The translations under genes and the position numbers were made by a program. Positions 6,600 to 53,520 of a stretch of DNA of 64,000 bases are shown here, in pieces (position 1 is the stretch's first letter; each line of letters begins with the position of its first letter). The notes beneath the pieces are model-generated. The model saw nothing but the letters and a program-made list of their open reading frames with translations. It did no database searches and was not told the DNA's origin. The stretch covers positions 116,126,001 through 116,190,000 of the forward strand of contig OZ024743.1 in the NCBI GenBank assembly GCA_964016885.1, given 5' to 3'. The stretch comes from Eledone cirrhosa. Lineage: Eukaryota.

Positions 6600-9500
6600 G
6601 TGGGAGTGAAGTGGCAAACACAGATGTGGTGACCATCAGCGAGACCAGAATTTCCGAAGCACGAGTCTTCGCACCGATCCTCGGCGGCTACGATGTATAT
6701 GCATCTCCCAGCAGTCCGGGAACGGGGACGGAGTCGCTGTGGTTTTTCGAAGAGCTTGGATCTCGCCATACAGGCCATCTTCCTGAAACCAAAAGGTAAG
6801 TCGGTGGTACTGGACGTGACAGGCAGCGAAGGCAATGCTTTCAGGCTAGTCACCGTCTACGCCCCAACGGCGGCAGGACGGCCAAATTTCTTCAGAGATC
6901 TAGAGACCTTTCTTCGAACGTCCCGCTCTTTAGTGTTAGTGGGTGACTGGAACGGTATCTTAGATGCACGCTGGGATTATGTGGGGCTAATAAATAAGGG
7001 AGGAGGATGTAAAACCTCACCAACCTGCTCAGACGTTTTCAACTGTCTGACATGTATCAACTGGATTATCTGAATGTGCCAATGTGGACGCGGGCAAACG
7101 CAACGTGTCATCCAGATCGTATCTAGATAGGGTATTGTGTAGGGAAACAGATAAGGCTAACGTAGGCTGTCCACAATTTAAAGTAGTCGGCTAGACGGAC
7201 CACAAAATTGTGATCTGTGAAGTCGACTTAGATAGACTTCATAGGCAAGGACCTGATTACTGGAAGCTGAACGCGGCTTTCCCGGCGCGTAATGCTTACA
7301 GAGATCGGATAAGCGAATTAGTTGAGCGTGAGTTGACGGGTGCGATCATCAACAACAAGTGGTGGTTTACTCTGAAAAGTGCAATTAGAGTAGAATCAAT
7401 AAGATTTAGCAAAGTCGTAAAGATAGAGGAAAATAGAGTAGAAGTAGTCAGAAAGCTAAAAGAGGCGTTTAGGACAGGCATCGCAACCGACGTGCTTGCG
7501 GCAAGATTGGCACTCGACCAATTCTTCAATGCAAAGCACGAAGGCTGCGTTATCAGAGCTAGAGCACGTGCTCTGAAAGAAGAGGGAACAAAAGCTGTCC
7601 CATGGGCCCGGGTGGTGAAGGCGCGATGTGGCAAGAAAGCCACAATTCAAACCTTTCCTGACCAGAACGGGTACATGTTACTCGAACCCGAGCAAATGTG
7701 TGAGGTTCTTCAGCAGTACGGGCAAGATCTGAATATGAACTTCAGTGCATACATAGAGGGTCTGCGCAGCTCTCGACAACCGATGTGCAGTATTGCTAAA
7801 ATCCGATAACAGCAGGTGAAATACAGGAAGCGATGTCTGACTGCACGAGGGGTAAATCGCCAGGTTTGGATGGTCTGCCCTACGATCTTTATGCGTACAT
7901 GCCAGACTTTTTGGCAGACGTCTACTGCAAATGGCAGCAGAACGGAGGCATTCCCAGTTTTGTGAGCCGGGAGCGGTGGTGCTATTGAGAAAATACCCGA
8001 ACAAAGGGAACGTTATAGACAACTTTATGCCCATAACTGTTAAACACAGGCTTCAAGATTTTGGCCAAGGTGTTAGCAACGGCATTGGCGCTTGTCGTCG
8101 GTGATCTGGTGGGAGAGGCGCAGACAAGCACCATTCCGGACAGATCCATCCACGACAACATCCATCTCATGCGATACATCATATAGAGGGTGGTTAAGGA
8201 AGCCTTTGATAGTGTCGACCATCGGAACCTGGATGCGGTCTTCGAGGCGGCCGGCTTCGGGCCCGTTTTTAGGGGCTGGATTGCTGTGATGCACAGCGAT
8301 ATATGCTCAATTGTGAGGCTGAATGGTCACCTTTCATGCGCACGGTCCGCCAGGGTTTCCCCCTCTCGTCTCTCTTGTGCGTACTGGCCTTCGAGCCGTT
8401 ACTGCACAAATTGGAGACGATGAGGGGGTCCCGCGCGAACTGGGTTGTGGAAGATCCATGTCAGCTTACGCCGACGACGTCACTGTGGTGGTGTCTAGCA
8501 CCAAACACGTCCAGATGCTCGGCACCGCTCTTAAGGAATACGAATCGGTGACAGGAACAAAGATAAACCAAGAAAAGTTGGTGGCCTTGCAACTCGGCAC
8601 CTGGAGAGGCAATTAAATGCCGTCCGACAGATCGTGGGGCGCTGGACCGAAGGACCGGTTAAATTGCTCGGGTCTGGTTCGGTTGGGACCACCAGATGGA
8701 GAAAAACAGGAGCGAGGTGACGAGCAGTGTGGCCTCTCTCACCCAGAAATGGGCCGAGAGGAGGCTGTCTCTGAATTGTCGGGTGGACGTGGCGAATGCG
8801 TACATCGCGTCCGTCATCTGCTACCGCCTGACCGTCGTACCTTGCCCCCTCCCAACTCTGACCAAAATGGAGCGCCTTATCTTCCGCTTTTTGTGGAAGG
8901 GACGTGCTGCCATGGTCAGACGATCCATTTGCTGTCAACACCCGTTGCGTGGAGGACTAGGCATGCCGTGGCTGATGATGCGCAAACATACGCTGAGTCT
9001 GTGACACCTCTGGTGTTTCCTTGACGGGGAACATGTGTGGTCGCCGTTTGCCAGACACGCTTTTCCCCAGCTCGTCTCCTTGATGGAGTTACAGTCCTGG
9101 ATCAGGAAATGTTCGAGAGAGAGCGCTTGGAAGCTGGAATGTCTCCAAGCGCTCACCGCCCTCTACCAGCTGGGCACTAGAATCGGTGGAACATCTACAT
9201 CGGCGTTCTGTAGAGGGATAGTGGAAGGAAAGAGCGGCGACGTTCTCGGGGAGACCCTGGGCGTCGAAGACGATCAGATGTTCGCTCTTGTCAAGAGAAC
9301 TTTCAGACCGGGGCCTATGGACAATTTCCAGAAATCCCTGGCCTGCAGAGCTACCGGGAAGCGTTGCCGGTTCGGGATAAGCTCTACATTCACGGAGGTG
9401 CTGTCAGCCGAGCATGTCCGACATGCGCGCAGGGCGACGAAACCGTCCTGCACGCACTCGTTCAGTGCCCGAGGATTGCTGACTTGTGGAGCTATGTCGA

Positions 9501-9833
9501 ACAGCTGCTGTCGCGTGTAGGACGGATCCGGTTATCGACTGACTTCATTGTGCAGATCGCCCCGATATCCTCCTTTAAATAGGTGGAAGGCAGGCAGTTT
9601 TCATCTGCCAGGTGGCCATGGCGAAAGAGATTGTGTGGTGGACAAGGTTGAAAGGGTTGAAAACGGACACTTTCCTCTTCCGCCAATACCTGATTAATTT
9701 TTTCAAGTTTCACTTGAAGAGGAAAATCAGGGTGGAGAGGCAAGTGATGTCTTCTAGTAAGTTTGTTGAAAGGTGGGTGAAAGTGACGAGTCTGGTCCGA
9801 ATGAACGGGCCCGCTCGGAATATGCGCCCGTAG
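6600..9833 (+). pseudogene. L1/Tx1 ORF2 (APE endonuclease, RT, CCHC finger), frameshifted
   Basis: DVVTISETR, VYAP, LVGDWN, YLDRV, DHK, YWKLN, EAFDSVDH, RQGFPLS, AYADDV, GGLGMP, CPTCAQGDETVLHALVQC. Confidence 0.92.
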
Positions 9834-10093
9834 ACTGACGAGTGAGAAAACTGAGACAGGGCGCTTGCCCTGGTGGTCAGAGTGGCCGTGGCTTTTTTGT
9901 GTAGTTTTCGCCACGAGTGTCCCTCGGAGATTTCCCCCTTTTTGAGGAATTTTTGTTGTTTTAATTTTTTTTAATTTTTAGCCCAATTTTGTTAGAACCT
10001 GTTTACACGACCAAAACCCACTTTGTATCGTCCTGTACTGTTCTGTGCCGTTTCTAATGTTTTTCTTCATGTTAGCCCTTGTGGCCAATAAAG

Positions 10094-12652
10094 CCACAAT
10101 TCGCGACGTGGCAACAAAGCCACAATTCGGTCTTTGTCTGACCAAAACGGGCGCGTGTTGCTTGAACCCGAGCAGATGTGTGAAGCTGTTCAGCAGCACT
10201 CTACTGAACTCTTCGGGAGCAGCGGTGGGCCGAATCGGTGTATGGACTTCAGTGCATACCTCGATGGACTGCCTCGGCTCTCGACGACCGCAGCACAGTG
10301 TTGCGAAAAGCCATGAACAGCCGGTGAAATTCGGGAAGCGATGGCTAACTGCACGTGGGTATAGCACCAGGTTTGGATGGTCTGCCCTACGAGCATTATG
10401 CACTTATGCCAGACTTGTTAGGTGACCTCTTGGCAGACGTCTACTGCAACTGGCAGCAGAACGGGAGCATTCCTAGTTTTGTGAGCCGGGGAGCGGTGGC
10501 GTTGCTGAGAAAAGACCCGAACAAAGGGATGTTATCGATAACTTCAGGCACATAACCCTGCTAAACGCAGAGTTCAAGATTTTGGCCAAGGGTCTTGATG
10601 GCGCTTGTCGTCAAGGGTCTGGTGGGAGAGACGCAGACATGCGTCATTCCGGAAAGATCAATACACGACAACCTCTACTTCATGCGATACATCATAGAGA
10701 GGGTGGTTAAGGAGCGTGGCACGGGTGGCGCCCTGATCAACTTGGATCAATCCAAAGCATTCGATAGGGTCGACCATCGGTACCTGGTGTCGGTCCTCAA
10801 TCAGCCTGTTTCGGGCATGTTTTCAGGGGTTGGATCGCTGCGATGTACAGCGACATCTGCTCAGTTGTGAGGATGAACGGTCACCTGTCGCAGCCGTTCA
10901 GCATCATGCGCTCGGTCCGCTAGGGTTGTCCCCTCTTGTCCCTCTTGTACGTATTGGCTCTCGAGCCATTACTGCACAAACTGGGGGTGATGAGGGGCGT
11001 CCCATGCGAACTAGGATGCGGGAAATCCGAGTCGGCTTCCGCCGACGACTTCGTCTTGGTGGTGTCAAGCACCAGACACGACCAGATGCTCGGCACCGCT
11101 CTCAAGGAATACGAAGCGGTGACAGGGGCAATGATCAACCAGGAAAAGTCAGTGGGCCTGCAACTCGGCACCTGGGGAGGAAGGTCCATGCCGTCCAACT
11201 GCGTCGTCGGGCGCCGGACTGACGGACCGTGATGTTGGTAGGGGTCTAGTTCGGTCCGGATCTCCAGACGGACAAAAACTGGGACGAGGTGACGAGCAGA
11301 GTGGCTTCTCTCACCCAGAAATGGGCGGAGAGGAAGCTATCACTGAAAGGCCGAGCGGGGGTGGCTAACGCGTACATCGCGTCCGTCATCTCCTACCGCC
11401 TGACCGTAGTACCTTGTCCTAAGTCCCGCCTGACTGCGCTGGAGCGTTTGCTCTTTCGCTTTTTGTGGAAAGGATGCGCTCAGATGAACAGGCGGTCCAT
11501 CTGCTGTCAACACCCGCTACGTGGAGGGCAGGGAATGCCGTGGCTGATGAACCGCAGACACGCGCTCAGGCTACGACATCTTCACCTCTACCTCGACGGT
11601 TATCAGGTGTGGTCGCCGTTTGCTAGACGCGTCATTCCCCAGCTCGTTTCCTTAACTGAGCTGCAGTCCTGGGTCAAGCGAAGACCAAGAGGGAACGCTT
11701 GGAGACTGGAATGTCTTCAGGCGCACAGAGCCCTCGAGCAATCGGCCAATGTGATCGGTGGAAACTCCACCTTGGCGTTCTATAGAGGTTTAGTGGAGGG
11801 GAAGAGCGACGACGTACTTGGGGAAACTCTAGGCGTCGACGAAAATCAACTAGACAATCTCTTCGGAAGGACTTTTGGGCCGGGGCCTATGGACAACTTC
11901 CAGAAATCCCTGGCCTGGCAGTGCTACTGAGGAGCTTTGCCAGTTCGGGATAAACTCTACAGGCATGGAGGTGCCGTCAGCCGGGGATGTCCGAGATGCG
12001 CGCAGGGAACGCACTCGTCCATTGTTCGAGCATTGATGACTTATGTGTTTATGTCGAACACCTACTGTCGCGTTCAATGTCGAACACCTGCTGTCGCGGG
12101 GCAATCCTCACGATCGAATCAGCTGATTCGATCGTGAGGATTGCCCCGCCCTCTTCCTTTAGCCGGGAAGTGCAGGCAGTTTTTATCTGTCTGTTGGCTA
12201 TGGCGAAAGAGATAGTATGGTGGACACGTTAGAAAGGACTGAAGACGAGCACTTACCTCTTCGGTGATGCCTGAATAACTTTTTTAAATTTCATTTGAAA
12301 AGGAAAATCAGGGTAGAGAGGGAAGTGCTCTCTTCCCAGCATTTTGTTGAAAGATGGGTGAGAGAAGCAAGAATGGCCCGAGTGAATGGGCCTACTCTGA
12401 GTATGTGTCTGTAAATTAAAGGTGGAAAAGTGGGAGAGGGCACTTGCCCTGGTGGTCAGCATCACTGTGGCTTTTTAATGGGTTTTCTTCACGAATATCC
12501 CTCGGAAGTCTCCCCGTATTGGGGAATTTTTCATTGTTATTTTGTTGGGTTTTTTTATCATTACACGCAGAAATGCCCATTTGTACCGTCCTGTATTTTT
12601 CTGTACTGTCCTTAATGTCTACTTTATGTAAACCCTTGTGGTTAATAAAGAA
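10094..12652 (+). mobile_element. 5'-truncated L1/Tx1 LINE (copy 2), head-to-tail with copy 1
   Basis: PGLDGLPYE, LDQSKAFDRVDH, SADDFV, WAERKLSLKGR, CPRC; ends CCCTTGTGGTTAATAAAG. Confidence 0.9.
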
Positions 12653-29377: not shown

Positions 29378-29521
29378 TATATGTGCCTCGGACGCGTCTA
29401 TTTCTTCTCGCCATTTGATTTGTCGAACTTAAGCCCACAAGATTCATTAACTTGTCTCTCTTTTCTCTCTTTACGTTGCATTACTACCATGTTGTTTGTT
29501 TCCTTTCCTCTGATTTCCTCT

Positions 29522-29627
29522 GTCCCGATAACTTACTTTAGTTATCGCTGGCACTGATTTTAGGTATCTAGTCTGTCTTTAAGGCGAAGAAATACCAACG
29601 ATAATCAGCAGACTACTGATGAAGGAC
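29522..29627 (+). ncRNA. Rearranged (pseudoknotted) hammerhead-like RNA motif, family B, intact core
   Basis: GTCC-[CGATAACT/AGTTATCG]-CTGGCA-CTGATT-TTA-GGTA-TC-TAGTCTG-TCTTTAAGGCGAA-GAAA-TACC-AACGAT-AATCAG-CAGACTA-CTGATGA-A-GGAC. Confidence 0.7.
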
Positions 29628-29653
29628 ATTCTTTTTTCTTGGTCTACTTTTAT

Positions 29654-29738
<85 letters not shown>

Positions 29739-29825
29739 ATACCTATATTAGGTTGGACCGACATATTTTCCATATTAGGAAATGTTCGACTATTTATATA
29801 CCTGACTAAAAAAACTCTTACTTTA

Positions 29826-30000: not shown

Positions 30001-30244
30001 GTCGGACAGACATACTTTATATATATATATATATATATATACATATGGGGAGGGTCATATTTGCATAATATTGCCAGAATTAATAACAGAACACACTCAC
30101 TGTTTGGTTGGTTTTCGCTTCTCGCTGTCTTTTATATCTGCGATCTAACTTACTCGGTCCTCAATGTTGCCATTGACTGACCGACGGTCAAAAATAATAC
30201 AGATACAATATAGATACAAACACATATATATAGTTTACATAATT

Positions 30245-30286
30245 TACATAAATCTTTCGTTGCACATCTGCAACATCGTCAGTGGT
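30245..30286 (-). ncRNA. HHR in the PLE 3' pLTR
   Basis: CA-CTGACGA-T-GTTGCA-GATG-TGCAAC-GAAA-GATTT-A-TG; 6-bp helix II, weak helix I. Confidence 0.7.
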
Positions 30287-30610
30287 GTTATATTTTTTCC
30301 TCCTGTTGTGTTGTATGTCTACGCCATTTTTTATTCAGTCTGTCTATATATTTATTTATTTAATTGCTTGTTTGTTTATTTTATTTTGTCTTCTTTGCGC
30401 ATGCGTTTGCGTGTGTGTATAGTGTTATGTGTGCTGTGTGACTAGTGTGTATAGTGTTGTGTCTGCTGGGTGACTAGTGTGTGTTTATGTGCTTGTTGTT
30501 ATTGTGCTTGTGTATGTATTTATTTATCTTATTTTATTTTATTTTATTTATTTACTTATTTATACTTCTCTTAGGTCAGTGTTGTTTGTTTGGGTGTTGT
30601 TGTTGTTCCA

Positions 30611-33600
30611 CTAATTCTTTCTGTTTAGATTTGGTCTTCTAATTTCTATTTCACTGGCCTCTCTGATTTGCCTATCTGCTGGGTCATTCCTATGTTTAGA
30701 TATTATTCTAATTTCTATGTTGTCTATGTTACCGTCATGTTGTTGTCTAGCATGTTCGTATAGTACTGACCCGTTTTTTCGTCCTTTTAGTTCCACCCAG
30801 TGTTGGTCTATCCTTTCACCTATGCTACGAGCTGTCTCACCTATGTATGTTGTTGTCATGTTTCTGCAAGTACCCTCTGTACATCTTATGCTATAGACTA
30901 CGTTTCTAGTTTTACAGTTTATCCGGGGGTTCACCTTACATATGATACATTTCCTATTGGTACAGTGGGTTTTCTTAAAAGGGTAGGTTTTGCTGATCAG
31001 GGATTTTATGGTGGTTCCTGGCTTTTCTACCACCTTTATTTTTAAGTGGGTCTTTCTCAGGGCCTTTCTACACTGGTTAGCTAATTTCCCTCCAGGGGTG
31101 GCGTCAACAAACATGACACTCTGATATCTCTGGTTGTCGTACCATGATGTGGCCTTCCCTATCTTATGTCTAGCCCTATCTAAGCTATTCCATGATTTGC
31201 TCCTGTATAGTGGGCAAATTCCTTTCATGTCCAGTTCTATGAGGGTCTTATACTTTTCCATGGCTCCTTCGTATACTCTGACTCTGTCTCTTTGGTTGTA
31301 GCCAGAGAACTGCATGCGGTTGATGAAGTGTTGGATGTGTCTTTCCATTTCTGTTGGGTCGCACATGCTGGACACATTCTTCATCACTCGTACCAAATCA
31401 GCGATCAGAATATTAAACTTCGCACTACTGGACATTGCTGAGTTTTTGAGTATCAGGTATTTGGAGGCCATGGATTTAGCATAGTGTGAGTGGAGAATTG
31501 GGCTCTCTCGTCTATAGTGTTAATCCATAGTTCTGTGTCTAATACAGGTAGTCTATTGTTAGGGTATTTGGAAGGGAAGTCGATAGTTACAGTTATACTC
31601 TGGTGTATGGAATTAGCTATCTGCTGGATGCTTTCCATCGTGCTACGTTCTAAATCAAACTTGCTAGTGCTCTCTAGTGGGGGTGTTCTTATAACTATAT
31701 TGATATCGTCTACATAATGAGAGTACATGATGAGGTCTATGGAGCTTTCATTAAGGAGATCTTTAAGTCTCCTTTCCCACCATACCATGAAAAGGTTTGC
31801 AAAATCACCAGCTATGCTGACGCCGATGGCTGCTCCCTCATTTTGGTTGTAGATTTTCTCATTGAACTTAAATATGTGGCCCTTTAGGGTAGTTTTGATA
31901 CTAGCCCCTATTGCATGTGCGACCATTTTTCTCTACCTGATCAGTATTTTGGGGGTCCGTATAGCTTTGGTCCACCCAATCCACCTTCCTATGGGAGTCT
32001 TTTTTGCCATTGAGGTTATGGTGGGGGGTCTACCTCTTATAGGTCTACTAGGGCAGAAACATCTAAGGTCATGGCTGTCTAGGTAGTCAGTGTCGTAGGT
32101 AAGTCTAAGTAGGAGGCCCAGTTCGTCTGTGTCGACGTGGCAGAACTCCACCTCACTCTCAATGATCATCTACACACATCTTTTCACAGCAAAATCAATG
32201 TTAATGGATGGGTACAGTGACACCACATCCATGCTGCCTATTATGCAGTTGGATAGGCTCCTGTTTTTGTTGCACTCACTGATTCTGCTGAGGAGGTCCT
32301 CTGTACTTTCACATACATCTGGGGACATCTTGATTATGGGGCGTATAACCATTGAGAGGAAGTAGGAGATCCTGTAGTTGCTAGCTATATTAGCTCCGCA
32401 TACGGATCTTGTTGGTGGTCCTGTTGTCGGGTCGTCAACTGTCTTGTGGTCTTTGCGGAGCCCATACAAGGGTGGTATGCCATTGTTAGACGCCTGGAAG
32501 TTGTTGGCAGTGCGTCTGCTTGGCTTTAGGGTGTCAGTCCACATCATCATGTGAGCGTTGAGGATTGTTTCTCTCCCATCGTGTGTGTGTTGTGCAACTT
32601 CGCTCGTGTTGGTGATGTGGGGTTGCATAGCCTCGATGTAGTTCGACATGCTATCTATTGACATCCTACCAGACTTATCTGTGGGTAGACACACTACCTC
32701 ACCATCCCTTGTGCGCTGCTTGAGGCTAACCAAGCCTTCTACAGGTTTTCTCCCAAGTTGTTGGGCCTCTGGTCTGCTCTGTCTCTTAGTATACCTGTCC
32801 ACTACTTGTCTAATCTTATTTCTAGCTATGGTGAACTGTGCCTCCGTCTCGTCATCTATTTGCTGTGGTATGCAAACTCTTTTATTAAAGGGTAACCTCG
32901 TAGGATAGATATTACCCATCTTATATGTTTTGTCAGCTGGGTTGAAAAATAGTTTCTCTAAGGGGTTGTCATTATATCTATCGTCATAGTTGTGTGTGTT
33001 GCTATTGTTATTATCAGGGTGGTTGTTGTTGTTGTTTCTATCATTAGCATTAATATTATTGTTATGATTGCTAGATGTATTGTTGTTTACTTCACCGTTA
33101 TTGTTGTTGTTACTGTTATTTCTACCATTGTGGTTGTTACTATTATTATGTTTCTTGTTTTTGTTAATGTTGCTATTTCCATTATTACCACTGTGGTTAT
33201 TGTTGTTGTTGTTCGTATTGTTACCGTTATTACTACTGTGGTCACTGTTGCTGTGTCTGTGGTTAACGTTTCTATTATTATTATTATTGTGGTTGTTGTT
33301 GTTCCGTCTATCGCTAGTATTATTGCCATTATCACTATTTCTCACTTTCCTGCCATTGTTATGGTTATGGCTGTTATTTCTATACCCAGAGTTATTGTTT
33401 ATATTACTACTACCGTTATTATTGTTGTTGTTGTTTACCTTTGCATTCCAACGTATTTTTGTGAAACACTTTTCCAGCTCCGTTTTGCATTCCATAGGGT
33501 TAATCTTTTTGTAGATGGCACATTTTGGTGGTAACCGTAGGATTTGTTGTTCTTGTTCACTGATTAAAGTGTTCCCATAGATATTTACTGTGTGGTCATT

Positions 33601-34168
33601 GGTAAATTCTTCCGGTAGTTTTACATCAGTCATACGGATATTGTCGATGTTATCTGGGTATTTTTGAGAATATTCGATTTTCCTTTCTTGTAGTTTTTTC
33701 TTATTCATCCATTCTAATTTCTTCTTGAAATGCCTATAGCATTCGTTTCGAGCGTATTTCGTTTCGCGTCGGATGACGCTCATGAAGTCATCTCTCTCGT
33801 TTGCTGTGATGAGATTTCGGATTTCTTACCGTTGATGCGTTTCTGTCTGTAGAGTGCGTTGACTTTTGTGTATGTTGTTCTTTTCATATTAACCGTTATT
33901 GTGTGTTTTAGCCGTTCGGCTTGTGTTTTGTTCAATAATAAATTATTTACTTGTTTTGATATGTTTGTTGTGTATGTTTTGGAGGAAACACAGTGTTTTA
34001 AGAAGCGGATTTGTTCTGTTGTTATTGTAGTTTTTATATAACAGAAAACAGTGTCTTTCAATAACCTTTCAGCTTGGCACAAGCTAATGCCGTAGCGGCG
34101 ATGAATTAGTTTAGCGAGGTTTTTTATATGAAATCGTGTGTCGAAACAGATATTGTTATACTTGGGGA
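30611..34168 (-). pseudogene. PLE ORF: N-terminal domain, Asn-rich insert, RT, Cys linker, GIY-YIG endonuclease
   Basis: FLKHC; PTDKSG; PPLYGLRKDHK; SMDVVSLYPSI; GAAIGVS; YVDD; LPVLD; CTNRKCIIC; VVYSIRC..YIGETARSIGERIDQH; QIREA..PNLN; a few stops/frameshifts. Confidence 0.93.
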
Positions 34169-34450
34169 GTATAAGATTTATGTAAATTATGTAAACTATA
34201 TATATGTGTTTGTGTCTATATTGTATCTGTATTATTTTTGACAGTCGGTCAGTCAATGGCAACATTGAGGACCGAGTAAGTTAGATCGCAGATATAAAAG
34301 ACAGCGAGAAGCGAAAACCAACCAAACAGTGAGTGTGTTCTGTTATTAATTCTGGCAATATTACGCAAATATGACCCTCCCCAAGTACAACAATATCTGT
34401 TTCGACACACGATTTCATATAAAAAACCTCGCTAAACTAATTCATCGCCG

Positions 34451-35490: not shown

Positions 35491-35592
35491 GTCCTTCATC
35501 AGTGACCCTCCAACCGTCCCAGGCATTTCATCGCTTTAAGGGCCATGTACCTCAGGTTGGTGCGAACAACGGCTAAAAAAGGTCGTTGGGAC
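35491..35592 (-). ncRNA. Rearranged hammerhead-like RNA motif, family C
   Basis: GTCC-[CAACG..CGTTG]-TTCGCA-CCAACC-TG-AGGTA-CA-TGGCCCT-TAAAGCGAT-GAAA-TGCCT-GGGAC-GGTTGG-AGGGTCA-CTGATGA-A-GGAC. Confidence 0.68.
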
Positions 35593-50318: not shown

Positions 50319-51795
50319 AAGGAGGTAGAACACTGGAAGGTCATATCCGTAGTGGTAGAGCACTATAGTTTGGTAGAAGTAGTAACACATCAGTTAGTTC
50401 ACCATACCGAGAACAATTGTTTCACCTTAAGTGGATATTCAGCTCGGAGGTGTAATGGTTATACAGAACAGGAAGAACAACCGTATCAAGGCGTATACGC
50501 AGAAACGTTCACTTCACCCAGGCGATACAAAACCACGGGCGAAATGTGTAATGGAGATAACTGCGATTGTCCGGAATAATATGTTCGAGTTGATTAGGAA
50601 ATTAGAATGTTGTTGTTATTCAATCCGGTGCTTTGTAGATATGCAAGAGGTGTTTCCAGACATGTGGACAAAGTGAGAAGATTACATTTCGTGAATTACT
50701 GTTTTTAGAAACTTCGTAAATAATATCAGTACTAGAATCTCTAACCTCTCCTCTAATTTGGCTATATTTGACAGAGCGGCCCACTACTATAACACAGAGT
50801 TAGCTTACAGCGGCTTCTCGCTACCAATTACTTACCACTCCACTAACAACAGCAGCTATAAGAACAGAAATTGTAACAATAGACAAAATATCTGGTTCTC
50901 TCCTCCCTTCTCACTCAACGTTAAAACTAATGTAGGAAAAACATTTTCAGCCGTCTTAGATACACACTTTCCCATAGGTCACAAATACCGCTCCATGTTT
51001 ACCAGACACAGAGTAAAACTAGGGTACTACTGCGCTAAGAATATGAAGGCCCACATCACCAACAGTCCTAAGAGCGGCTTCTCAGCAGGATGCTCTTGCC
51101 GAAAGCCTAAAGCTTGTCCCCCTCAACAGCAATACAACACACCCGCTGTAGTTTATGAAGCTGTGGTCACTTCCAACCGACCAAATCGACAGGAGGTAAA
51201 ATCTTATATGAGTATGGCGAAGGGCCGATTTAAGGAACGCTTCCTGAACCATCAATCGACCTTTAGGTACCCCGACAAACGACATCCACGATGCTCGCTA
51301 GCCACGTATGGTCCCTCAAAGACTGAGGTATAGACTACTCCATTCAATGGAAAGCTATCACTAAGTCCAAGTCATACAAAAGGAGTAATCCCTCTTGTGG
51401 ATTGTGTATTGAAGAAAGGATAAATATTCTAAGGAGATTACGCAATAGCGATTGTCTAAATTCGAGAAACGAAATCTTGTCACCTTGTTCACATGTCTGG
51501 AAACAGCTCTTGCATAACTACAAAGCTCCGCATTGAATAACAAAAACATTCTAATTTTTAATCAACTCGAACATATTATTCCGGACACTCGCAGTTATCT
51601 CCCTTACACCTTTCGCTCGTGGTTTTGCATCGCATTAGTGAAGTGACTGTGTCTGCGCATGCGCGTTCATACTGTTCTTTTCGTTCATACGGTTCTTTTC
51701 GTTCCGTATAACCATTACCAGTCCGAGCTGAAGATCCGCTTAAGGTGAAACAATTGTTCTCGGTATGGTTAACTAATTGTTGTGTTACTACTTTT
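50310..51795 (+). mobile_element. 5'-truncated PLE (thumb and GIY-YIG) with inverted 5' pLTR
   Basis: IWFSPPFSLNVKTNVGK, CSCRKPKACP, VVYEAVV, FKERFLNHQSTF; 50380-50470 is the inverted repeat of 51700-51790. Confidence 0.88.
51723..51763 (+). ncRNA. Minimal type-I HHR in the 3' pLTR (inverted copy 50407-50447 has CTGAATA)
   Basis: CCGAG-CTGAAGA-T-CC-GCTTAA-GG-T-GAAA-CAATTG-T-T-CTCGG. Confidence 0.87.
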
Positions 51796-52295: not shown

Positions 52296-52830
52296 ATGAT
52301 AAGAAACGAAAGGAGCTGTGTGGTTACAACAAAAAAAGGTTCCTTCGTCTGCTGATCCTGGCCTTTTGATTAAGAAAAGACCTCGGGCACACCGCGTATC
52401 GCTACAGATGTCCTGTAAATAAGCACTAAAACATCTGGATCGCGCATTTCAGATGACGAAGGATTATTTCTTCTTTTCTCCGCTTGTTCCGCCCAAACCT
52501 CCATCCTAAACTTTGTTTTTAGTAACCACACAGCTCCTTTGGTTTCTTGCAATTTTTATTTACCGCTGTGACCCTCCGCTACCTGTTTTCTTCGATCTGT
52601 GTTCCCACCACACTTTCGCATCGACTCTCCCCTTCTCACTTCCCTTCTCCTCTTCTCTCTCGTTCTCTCTCTCTCCCTCTCTCTATCCATGCGTTCTGTT
52701 TTGATTGTTGACATGTTTACACGTGTCGCAAAACTCCTCTATTCGCATTCTTTTACGACACATTTTACAACTGTCGTAAAACCCCTTTTGGATTATCTCC
52801 TTTGTCTTCACCCTCTCACTTCCGGTTGCT

Positions 52831-52915
<85 letters not shown>

Positions 52916-53520
52916 GCTCTCTTCTACGATGGTGTCGACACGCTAAAACCGTCCTCTTGTTAGCACATCCTACCAGGCATATGTCAACCAGGTTTGCTAT
53001 AACTCACTTATTTTTTCACGTTTACTCACTTGCATGTTCCTTTGTCCCGTGTCTCCCCATGATGGGATCTGTTGACCTGTTTTTTTCTCCTTTTTCTCCT
53101 TTTTCTCTTTCTTCCTCTCTCCTCATCACCTTTCCCCCTTTGTTCTTCTCCCTCTTTTCATTCTTTTTCCTTCCTTTTCCTCTTCTTTTCCTCTGGGCCT
53201 TTTGATTAAGAAAAGGCCTCGGGCGCACCGCGGAAAGCTACAGATGTCCTGTAAATAAGCGCTGAAACATCTGGATCGCGGATTGCAGCTGACAAAGGAT
53301 TCTTTCTTTTCTCCTCTTGTTCTATCTAAACCTCCATCCTAAACCCTATATACATATAGAATGGTGGTTTGGACGGAACAAGACGGGAAAAGAAAGAATC
53401 CTTCGTCAACTGTAATCCGCGATCCAGATGTTTCAGCGCTTATTTACAGGACATCTGTAGTAATCCGCGGTGCGCCCGAGGCCTTTTATTAATCAAAAGG
53501 CCAGGAGGAAAATAAAATAA
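52296..53520 (+). mobile_element. Non-coding element with two direct and one inverted ~150-bp repeats, each carrying the rearranged hammerhead-like motif (family A)
   Basis: Copies at 52355-52464 (+), 53192-53300 (+), 53398-53506 (-); consensus TCC-[GGCCTTTT/AAAAGGCC]-TCGGGCGCA-CCGCG-N8-CAGATG-TC-CTGTAA-ATAAGCGCT-GAAA-CATCTG-GAT-CGCGG-A-TTACAG-CTGACGA-A-GGAT. Confidence 0.75.

What the first reader, a model, noticed from the sequence alone, without database searches (positions are those of the whole stretch)
29522..29627. Hammerhead core boxes in a non-permutable order: candidate multiply pseudoknotted or obligate-dimeric hammerhead architecture
Seen: the motif reads P2a(GTCC) - hairpin P0 - P2b(TGGC; TCGC in family C)A - Pa(CTGATT) - P3(GGTA) - TC - P1(TAGTCTG) - linker - P2b'(GCGA)N - GAAA - P3'(TACC) - ..GAT - Pa'(AATCAG) - P1'(CAGACTA) - CTGATGA - A - P2a'(GGAC). 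Helices I and III flank UH, GAAA and CUGAUGA in exactly the hammerhead register. Established: type I/II/III hammerheads are circular permutations of CUGANGA>GAAA>UH. Here the linear order is UH>GAAA>CUGAYGA, the opposite cyclic order, so it cannot fold as a simple three-way junction. The same layout recurs in two other sequence-divergent families with fully different helix sequences. Inference: a self-cleaving RNA in which helix II is replaced by a P2a/P0/P2b junction, folding by pseudoknots or by strand exchange between two copies. Predicted cut is after C29568 (AUC). I do not recognise this topology from described HHR variants, but I cannot search to confirm novelty.
Basis: partly seen in the sequence, partly recalled or inferred. 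Interest (0 to 1): 0.93.

Follow-up and report, generated by a model that had tools for sequence, protein, structure and literature searches.

The report
Rearranged hammerhead ribozyme in animal retrotransposons
This looks like a self-cutting RNA (a hammerhead ribozyme) whose parts are strung in an unusual order, carried by thousands of small jumping repeats in an animal genome and by a family of retrotransposons that was reported to lack such a ribozyme.

Summary
The motif is real: five copies lie in the window, and 10,956 exact core matches lie in the genome against 1 for the reversed control.

Its order (cleavage site, GAAA, CUGAUGA) is not undescribed. It is the published type-SGC non-circular permutation (PMC10085705). 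The wiring is new: the second strand of stem II lies 5' of the cleavage block, and CUGAUGA runs into an extra helix and hairpin. That breaks the 'block C' which the paper treated as indivisible. A kink-turn-like loop joins stem III to the stem I/II bridge. In 18 subfamily representatives, 18 of 33 pairs covary on both sides.

The same architecture, with different helix sequences, lies in ten published Naiad (Penelope-like) consensus sequences from five phyla, and six nematode Naiads show type-CSG order. I read these by eye in the supplement of PMC8557442, which reported Naiads as lacking canonical hammerheads.

Here the motif sits in 520-800 bp non-coding tandem or inverted repeats beside (TA)n. 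Cleavage, expression and monomer versus dimer are untested. The window copy is a mutated, 5'-truncated insertion. Verdict: new variant of a known kind.

The parts
29383..29650 (+). 5'-truncated copy of non-coding repeat family A (monomer about 550 bp elsewhere in the genome)
   Evidence: BLAST against genome loci gives 29383 to about 29658; alignment; tandem spacings
29522..29525 (+). P2a 5' strand, pairs with 29624-29627 and closes the motif
   Evidence: one pair G-C in 9 and A-U in 8 of 18 rows
29526..29547 (+). P0 hairpin
   Evidence: 4 of 7 pairs change on both sides; formed in the MFE fold
29548..29552 (+). displaced second strand of stem II (P2b); TGGC here, TCGC in the family, so one G.G mismatch in this copy
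   Evidence: G-C pair next to GAAA in family C and in Naiad consensi
29554..29559 (+). Pa 5' strand: bridge helix, counterpart of the stem I/II interaction helix of type-SGC
   Evidence: 5 of 6 pairs change on both sides
29560..29562 (+). non-bulged strand of the kink-turn-like loop (TTA here, NGA in most families)
29563..29574 (+). Block S: stem III strand, U16.1, C17 (predicted cut after 29568), stem I strand
   Evidence: sequence; P1 has 5 of 6 pairs changed on both sides; cut site inferred by analogy with hammerheads
29575..29583 (+). linker stem I to stem II; 5 nt in the family, 9 nt here through a 4-nt duplication
29584..29596 (+). Block G: stem II strand, position 11.1, GAAA, stem III strand
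29597..29602 (+). bulged strand of the kink-turn-like loop: 3-nt bulge, GA, N
   Evidence: GA at this place facing A in 103 of 108 full-length copies
29603..29609 (+). Pa 3' strand and 1-nt spacer
29610..29627 (+). Split block C: stem I strand, CUGAUGA, one nucleotide (pairs with 11.1 in most families, A.A here), P2a 3' strand
   Evidence: pair 63-98 is A-U in 8 and U-A in 8 of 18 rows
29651..29741 (.). (TA)n microsatellite at the 3' end, likely insertion target
   Evidence: 180 of 239 copies have (TA)n within 130 nt downstream against 615 of 4000 random positions
35491..35592 (-). second copy, family B, different P1/Pa/P0 sequences; U16.1 changed to C in this copy
52355..52470 (+). family C copy, decayed core, one tandem unit upstream of 53186
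53186..53306 (+). family C copy (core reads CTGACAA)
53392..53512 (-). family C copy in inverted orientation (core reads TTGACGA)

Best explanation
A non-circularly permuted hammerhead ribozyme from the 3' UTR/pseudo-LTR of Naiad-type Penelope-like retrotransposons, amplified here in short non-autonomous, retrozyme-like repeats. The core is an ordinary hammerhead (stems I, II, III, CUGAYGA, GAAA, cut after UH) in S-G-C order. The chain is opened between CUGAYGA and stem II: the second stem II strand comes from the 5' end, and the opening is clamped by helix P2a and hairpin P0. Helix Pa ties the tips of stems I and II together. In families A/B/D/E a kink-turn folds stem III back so that Pa can reach them within one molecule. 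In the element's cycle, cleavage would cut tandem transcripts into unit-length RNAs. The two ends stay held by P2a, stem II, Pa and stem III, which would favour re-ligation into circles that a Penelope-type reverse transcriptase copies into (TA)n sites. Shown: sequence, copy number, covariation, tandem/inverted arrangement, (TA)n proximity. Read by eye: the same architecture in published Naiad consensi. Inferred: cleavage, cut site, kink-turn geometry, monomer fold, circularisation, mobilising enzyme. The copy at 29522 is itself probably weakened.
For: 10,956 core matches against 1 control. 93.9% of cells paired and 18 of 33 pairs with two-sided change, 0 of 500 shuffles, slid controls at most 6 pairs. 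Triplet AUA or AUC in 102 of 108 full-length copies. Type-SGC ribozymes cleave at the analogous site at 0.007-0.19 per min. The same layout with unrelated helix sequences in Naiad consensi of octopus (2), Acropora (3), Clytia, Morbakka, Pomphorhynchus, Eulimnadia and Beroe; the octopus Naiads share the P0 loop and both kink-turn strands with G000 families. Tandem GA/GA in 73 of 108 copies. A crude two-arm estimate gives 26-28 A to bridge against about 31 A reach with a 50-degree kink. Of 79 neighbouring pairs, 45 are tandem, 28 head-to-head and 6 tail-to-tail, as described for Penelope-like insertions.
Against: No cleavage or expression data. The alignment rows are related, and were gathered by core patterns and a filter on P2a/P2b/P3 anchors, so conservation of the core and of those three helices is partly by construction; P2b and P3 have only 1 covarying pair each. 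No intact Naiad ORF was found in G000: 82 matches, 26-73% identity apart from the query, most with stops, and the 3' motif of those remnants is decayed and scores nothing with the covariance model. So the parent link rests on other species. Family C lacks the kink-turn pattern. In the Eulimnadia Naiad, stem III and Pa form a near-continuous helix that cannot fold back (64 A). Family A has A.A at the closing position of stem II. The nested skeleton is not the preferred fold in 2 of 6 copies tested.
Confidence: 0.55

Rival explanations
1. Same ribozyme, same elements, but it works as a domain-swapped antiparallel dimer. Each molecule folds the nested skeleton (P2a, P0, Pa, stem III), and its S/G loop docks on the stem II strand and block C of the next tandem unit or of another molecule.
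For: The nested skeleton is what single-strand folding gives in 4 of 6 copies, leaving P1 and P2b unpaired (the program cannot form crossing helices). Stem III + Pa is a near-straight helix of about 15 bp in Naiad_EuTe and long in Acropora, which a dimer accepts at any length and a monomer does not. Copies come in tandem arrays of up to 9. A paper titled on PLE-associated hammerheads cleaving as dimers is cited by Eckert et al. (title only, paper not held).
Against: The kink-turn pattern is kept in four G000 lineages and in octopus Naiads at the place where a monomer needs a U-turn. Published type-SGC RNAs have a similar stem III-to-bridge link and cleave co-transcriptionally (molecularity not reported in the sections read). 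Many copies are solitary.
Confidence: 0.3
2. The structure is conserved in these elements but no longer catalytic in this genome. It serves as a packaging or reverse-transcriptase recognition signal (or an L7Ae-family protein site), with the hammerhead core a relic of Naiad ancestry.
For: No intact Naiad found to need it; weak 10.1-11.1 pairing in family A; UA sites; all five window copies carry lesions; 8 of 9 Xenopus retrozyme dimers did not cleave in one study.
Against: Core nucleotides and the UH site stay fixed across families whose helices have been rewritten, including young families (family B copies 97-99% alike among the best 40); relaxing the pattern at the stem II strand still returns the same core.
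Confidence: 0.12
3. Chance or artefact: hammerhead-like words in an amplified repeat with no selected structure.
For: One amplified ancestor inflates copy number; shuffle controls ignore relatedness (tool caveat).
Against: Two-sided changes in all seven helices and the same layout in ten Naiad consensi from five phyla with unrelated helix sequences.
Confidence: 0.03

Closest known systems
Type-SGC hammerhead ribozyme (HRIMA-1 and variants; Eckert et al. 2023, PMC10085705)
   Same: S-G-C block order, three mutually crossing stems, short linker from stem I to stem II, a bridge helix 5' of the stem I 3' strand, often one extra nucleotide after CUGAUGA
   Different: There stem II forms between block G and the bases right after CUGAUGA, and the bridge partner follows 3'. 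Here both are moved to the 5' end, with added P2a and P0 and a kink-turn-like loop. Published examples come from metatranscriptomes (supplement note 1); these are genomic repeats of an animal. 1 of 296 matches passes the core strings of the published descriptor.
Type-CSG hammerhead (same paper; two sequences)
   Same: Same reversed cyclic order; the stretch stem II strand - bridge - S - G runs in the same order as here
   Different: Opened at another point. Six nematode Naiad consensi show this type by eye.
Naiad Penelope-like elements (Craig et al. 2021, PMC8557442)
   Same: (TA)n targets, 5' truncation, tandem and inverted insertions; 3' UTRs of ten consensi carry this architecture
   Different: The repeats here show no ORF; the paper states that Naiads lack canonical hammerheads and flags only 'HHR_core' or 'HHR_half_core'.
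Animal non-LTR retrozymes (bioRxiv 10.64898/2026.07.22.740005)
   Same: Non-coding tandem units, one ribozyme per unit, proposed non-autonomous derivatives of PLEs
   Different: Defined and searched for by type I hammerheads only; this motif is not type I.
Kink-turns (standard consensus; Kt-23, PMC2790904)
   Same: 3-nt bulge followed by G.A and A.G; family A has A.U at the second pair as in Thermus Kt-23
   Different: Sequence match only; absent in family C and in several Naiads. Likeness to the box C/D kink-turn is recalled, not tested.

Membership tests
Hammerhead ribozyme (class) | CUGANGA, GAAA and UH core nucleotides next to stems I and III | tested here: met
   (partly by construction of the search)
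Hammerhead ribozyme (class) | Stems I, II, III supported by covariation | tested here: met
   P1 5 of 6 pairs, P3 1 of 5, P2b 1 of 4; wider variation by eye in Naiad consensi
Hammerhead ribozyme (class) | Self-cleavage after UH | not testable with these tools
   needs in vitro transcription or raw RNA reads
Hammerhead types I/II/III (Rfam) | Circular order C-G-S in a nested three-way junction; Rfam match | tested here: not met
   order is S-G-C; no Rfam match at gathering score in the window, no hammerhead family up to E 10 in 3 loci
Type-SGC hammerhead | Block order S, G, C | tested here: met
Type-SGC hammerhead | Stem II formed between block G and the bases directly after CUGAUGA (block C uninterrupted) | tested here: not met
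   at most 2 of 5 pairs in 105 of 108 copies, at most 1 of 4 with a 1-nt insertion in 107 of 108; 4 of 4 with the upstream strand in 93 of 108 (filter favours TCGC)
Type-SGC hammerhead | Helix joining stems I and II | tested here: met
   Pa, 5 of 6 pairs covary, but its second strand lies 5' of block S
Type-SGC hammerhead | Core strings of the published RNAMotif descriptor | tested here: not met
   1 of 296 matches
Naiad PLE (autonomous) | ORF with N-terminal GIY-YIG and C-terminal RT upstream of the motif | tested here: not met
   no Naiad-like ORF upstream of motif copies; only decayed Naiad RT remnants elsewhere
Naiad PLE (autonomous) | (TA)n insertion bias, 5' truncation, tandem and inverted structure | tested here: met
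Naiad-derived non-autonomous element | 3' motif homologous to a Naiad 3' UTR | tested here: inconclusive
   same layout, P0 loop and kink-turn strands as Naiad_Obim/Ovul by eye; not aligned by a tool; the exact Obim segment is absent from G000
Non-LTR retrozyme | Tandem non-coding units each with a ribozyme | tested here: met
   43 of 45 tandem spacings 519-806 bp
Non-LTR retrozyme | Type I hammerhead | tested here: not met
   order S-G-C
Non-LTR retrozyme | Unit-length linear and circular RNA in cells | not testable with these tools
   no RNA run listed
Kink-turn | 3-nt bulge then G.A and A.G pairs | tested here: met
   73 of 108 copies; family A (the window copy) has A.U at the second pair
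Kink-turn | 50-degree kinked fold, L7Ae-family binding | not testable with these tools
   needs FRET, gel or structure

The most novel reading that the evidence does not exclude
Naiad retrotransposons across animals are a large natural reservoir of non-circularly permuted hammerheads, in at least two topologies: type-CSG in nematodes, and in other phyla a further form opened inside block C, outside the six permutations proposed as the full set. The split form may work as a kink-turn-folded monomer in cephalopod-like lineages, possibly gated by a host L7Ae-family protein, and as a domain-swapped dimer where stem III and Pa are straight. It may self-ligate unit RNAs into circles that drive tens of thousands of insertions.
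Probability: 0.3. Interest if true: 0.92.

Novelty: new variant of a known kind. Interest (0 to 1): 0.8.

Why it matters
It would correct two published statements at once: that the CUGAnGA block cannot be separated from stem II (six permutations only), and that Naiads, said to dominate many invertebrate genomes, spread without hammerheads. It moves non-circularly permuted ribozymes from rare metatranscriptome contigs into animal chromosomes at more than ten thousand copies. It makes the role of ribozymes in Penelope-like transposition testable with 100-nt RNAs. It also offers natural monomer and dimer versions of one core for structure work.

Tried and rejected
Rfam: no match at gathering score in the window; only microsatellite-driven noise up to E 10 in 3 loci.

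They scored at most 25 and 27 of 30 on my helix score, against 26-30 for 209 of 235 genome copies; the top 6 of each looked like chance coding matches.

Expression: no RNA holder listed; 4 contig runs of one study showed only the repeat and say nothing on ends or strand.

Neighbouring Penelope-like element (30611-34280, minus strand) as parent: rejected. It lies on the other strand and has its own C-then-G hammerhead-like core.

C-terminal GIY-YIG elements as carriers: no motif in 30 of 150 scored loci examined, nor beside 2 long ORFs. The single model hit among 62 loci lay on the opposite strand of a Naiad remnant.

Intact Naiad in G000: one exact match to a short RT-motif pattern, leading to 82 decayed remnants; a divergent intact Naiad is not excluded.

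Direct stem II between blocks G and C: rejected. The covariance model of families A/B/D/E misses family C.

Earlier findings of the scan: 3 look-ups, nothing. Luense 2017 not held. CTGAAGA cores and cores split by line breaks in the Naiad supplement were not searched.

Full report
Observation. The motif is a high-copy repeat. BLAST-type searches of the window's own genome G000 (3.0 Gb) gave 1,174, 1,199 and 899 first-look candidates for the three families, 40 scored each. A pattern for GCG-NN-GAAA, 18-32 nt, CTGAYGAAGGA has 10,956 exact matches against 1 for the reversed control. The copy at 29522 differs from its family by a 4-nt duplication at the P1/linker border and by TCGC to TGGC. The other four window copies each have a changed core base. 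The conclusions therefore concern the families, not this insertion.

Known part. The order cleavage site, GAAA, CUGAUGA is type-SGC of Eckert et al. 2023 (PMC10085705; I read the abstract, introduction, methods, four results sections, the first part of the discussion, and supplement parts 1 and 8 of 42). Those RNAs cleave at the predicted site at 0.007-0.19 per min and come from metatranscriptomes. The paper assumes three indivisible blocks and so six permutations.

New part. In these copies stem II does not form between block G and the bases after CUGAUGA: at most 2 of 5 pairs in 105 of 108 distinct full-length copies, while the strand 5' of block S pairs 4 of 4 in 93 of 108 (my filter favoured TCGC). 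The bases after CUGAUGA pair with the 5' end (P2a), and a hairpin P0 sits between P2a and the displaced stem II strand. This is the SGC circle opened inside block C. Only 1 of 296 matches passes the core strings of the published descriptor, which would explain why such a search misses it.

Covariation. The 108 copies fall into 22 clusters of fixed 102-nt geometry. I aligned one member of 17 clusters plus the window's family-B copy, and left out 5 clusters with a shifted 5' register. On the named structure 93.9% of cells pair and 18 of 33 pairs change on both sides; none of 500 shuffles reaches this, and slid registers give at most 6. By helix: P1 5 of 6, Pa 5 of 6, P0 4 of 7, P2a 1 of 4, P2b 1 of 4, P3 1 of 5. 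The base after CUGAUGA and the base before GAAA are A-U in 8 rows and U-A in 8. The rows are related and the core and three anchors were selected for, so these numbers are not probabilities. Family C and its relatives have other helix sequences again, with a G-C pair of stem II directly against GAAA; I judged these by eye.

Kink-turn. Between stem III and Pa the loop reads NGA on one strand and three bases, GA, N on the other: tandem GA/GA in 73 of 108 copies, and GA facing A in 103. This matches the consensus given in the abstracts listed. Family A has A.U at the second pair, like Thermus Kt-23 (abstract of PMC2790904). A crude two-arm calculation with assumed rise and angles puts the end of Pa 26-28 A from the tip of stem II with a 50-degree kink, within an estimated 31 A reach. 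This is a plausibility estimate, not a model. Family C lacks the pattern.

Host element. Copies are 5'-truncated and end near (TA)n: 180 of 239 within 130 nt, against 615 of 4000 random window positions. Of 79 neighbouring pairs, 45 are tandem (43 spaced 519-806 bp), 28 head-to-head and 6 tail-to-tail; one array has 9 units. No Naiad-like ORF lies upstream. These are the features described for Penelope-like insertions (passages of PMC8557442) and for non-LTR retrozymes, which are defined by type I hammerheads (bioRxiv 10.64898/2026.07.22.740005, first part and passages).

Naiad link. Craig et al. 2021 state that Naiads lack canonical hammerheads and flag some as HHR_core or HHR_half_core. I read their supplement by term search and in parts 1, 12 and 19 of 59. 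Among 54 Naiad consensi I found by eye the full split architecture in ten: Obim and Ovul (octopus), Amil, Aacu and Anas (Acropora), Movir-2 (box jellyfish), one Clytia element, Plae (acanthocephalan), EuTe (clam shrimp) and Bfor (ctenophore; P1 only 2 bp). It is degenerate in Esco. In Plae and EuTe, whose whole consensus I read, it lies just 3' of the ORF; the others lie near the 3' end or were seen only as passages. In most, stem II is 5-6 bp with G-C against GAAA and its partner strand 5' of block S. The octopus elements share the P0 loop and both kink-turn strands with G000 families. Six nematode Naiads (Nbra-1, -2, -3, Hcon, one Pristionchus element, one in part 16) show type-CSG order with a bridge helix. 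These readings were not run through a tool, some names follow from file order, and CTGAAGA cores or cores split by line breaks were not searched, so the counts are lower bounds.

Against the link. In G000 I found only decayed Naiad RT remnants (82 matches, 26-73% identity apart from the query). Their 3' regions keep a GAAA segment but no recognisable intact motif. The exact Obim segment is absent. Family B is young (97-99% among the best 40), so its mobiliser is unknown. Long RT + C-terminal GIY-YIG ORFs exist (1,096 and 938 codons) and could act in trans, but they show no motif.

Mechanism. Most likely the RNA cleaves after UH (AUA or AUC in 102 of 108; GUC in family C) with ordinary hammerhead chemistry, cutting tandem transcripts to unit length. 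The two ends of a unit would be held by about 19 bp (P2a, stem II, Pa, stem III), so self-ligation into circles is plausible; this is inference. I put self-cleavage at about 0.85 overall: 0.55 as a kink-turn-folded monomer in this lineage, 0.30 as a domain-swapped dimer. The dimer is favoured by EuTe, where stem III and Pa make a near-straight helix of about 15 bp (64 A gap), and by single-strand folding, which gives the nested skeleton in 4 of 6 copies and cannot form crossing helices.

Novelty. Nine searches of the held library for this topology or for permuted hammerheads in Penelope-like elements, Naiads or cephalopods returned no description. Passages of PMC13725137, PMC11472068 and PMC10162972 add none. 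Most subscription papers are not held, Luense 2017 could not be read, and 40 of 42 parts of the Eckert supplement were not seen. Verdict: works like a type-SGC hammerhead, fails its block-C definition, and is best filed as a new permutation variant typical of Naiad-type elements.

Noticed in passing
window 30050-34450 (-): Penelope-like element with RT and C-terminal GIY-YIG (frameshifted, Asn-rich N-terminal part, CxxxxCxxC linker), flanked by (TA)n, with an inverted 5' piece.
   Followed up: partly
window 30250-30290 (-): Hammerhead-like CUGACGA, 6-bp stem II and GAAA in canonical C-then-G order in the 3' UTR of that element; I did not locate its cleavage block.
   Followed up: no
PMC8557442 supplement, nematode Naiad consensi: Six show type-CSG hammerheads with a stem I/II bridge helix, a type published from only two sequences.
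   Followed up: partly
PMC8557442 supplement, parts 17-19 and 26 (by file order spider, ostracod and hemichordate Naiads): CUGACGA or CUGAUGA cores in structured 3' UTRs that fit neither the split nor the CSG layout at a glance; possibly further topologies.
   Followed up: no
L309 (G000:C1:43918169-43924214): Tandem array of 9 family-B-like units of 721-806 bp with an expanding (CTT)n tract.
   Followed up: partly
L419-L450: Decayed Naiad-type RT remnants; several keep a GAAA segment in the 3' UTR, which itself contains a short internal duplication.
   Followed up: partly
L457, L458: Long open Penelope-like ORFs (1,096 and 938 codons; RT then GIY-YIG), candidate trans-mobilisers.
   Followed up: partly
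family A and E 3' ends; window about 30315-30335 (+): A shared short motif (CGCCATTTTT...ATT) occurs at the 3' ends of families A and E and, antisense to the ORF, in the neighbouring Penelope-like element; meaning unknown.
   Followed up: no
window 7195-11930 (+): GC-rich fragments of a non-LTR retrotransposon (L1/Tx1-like by recalled motifs), two similar RT-end segments near 9000 and 11250.
   Followed up: no
window 50695-51333 (+): Fragment of a second Penelope-like type (C-terminal region with a GIY-YIG-like motif), also seen in L049, L053, L083.
   Followed up: no
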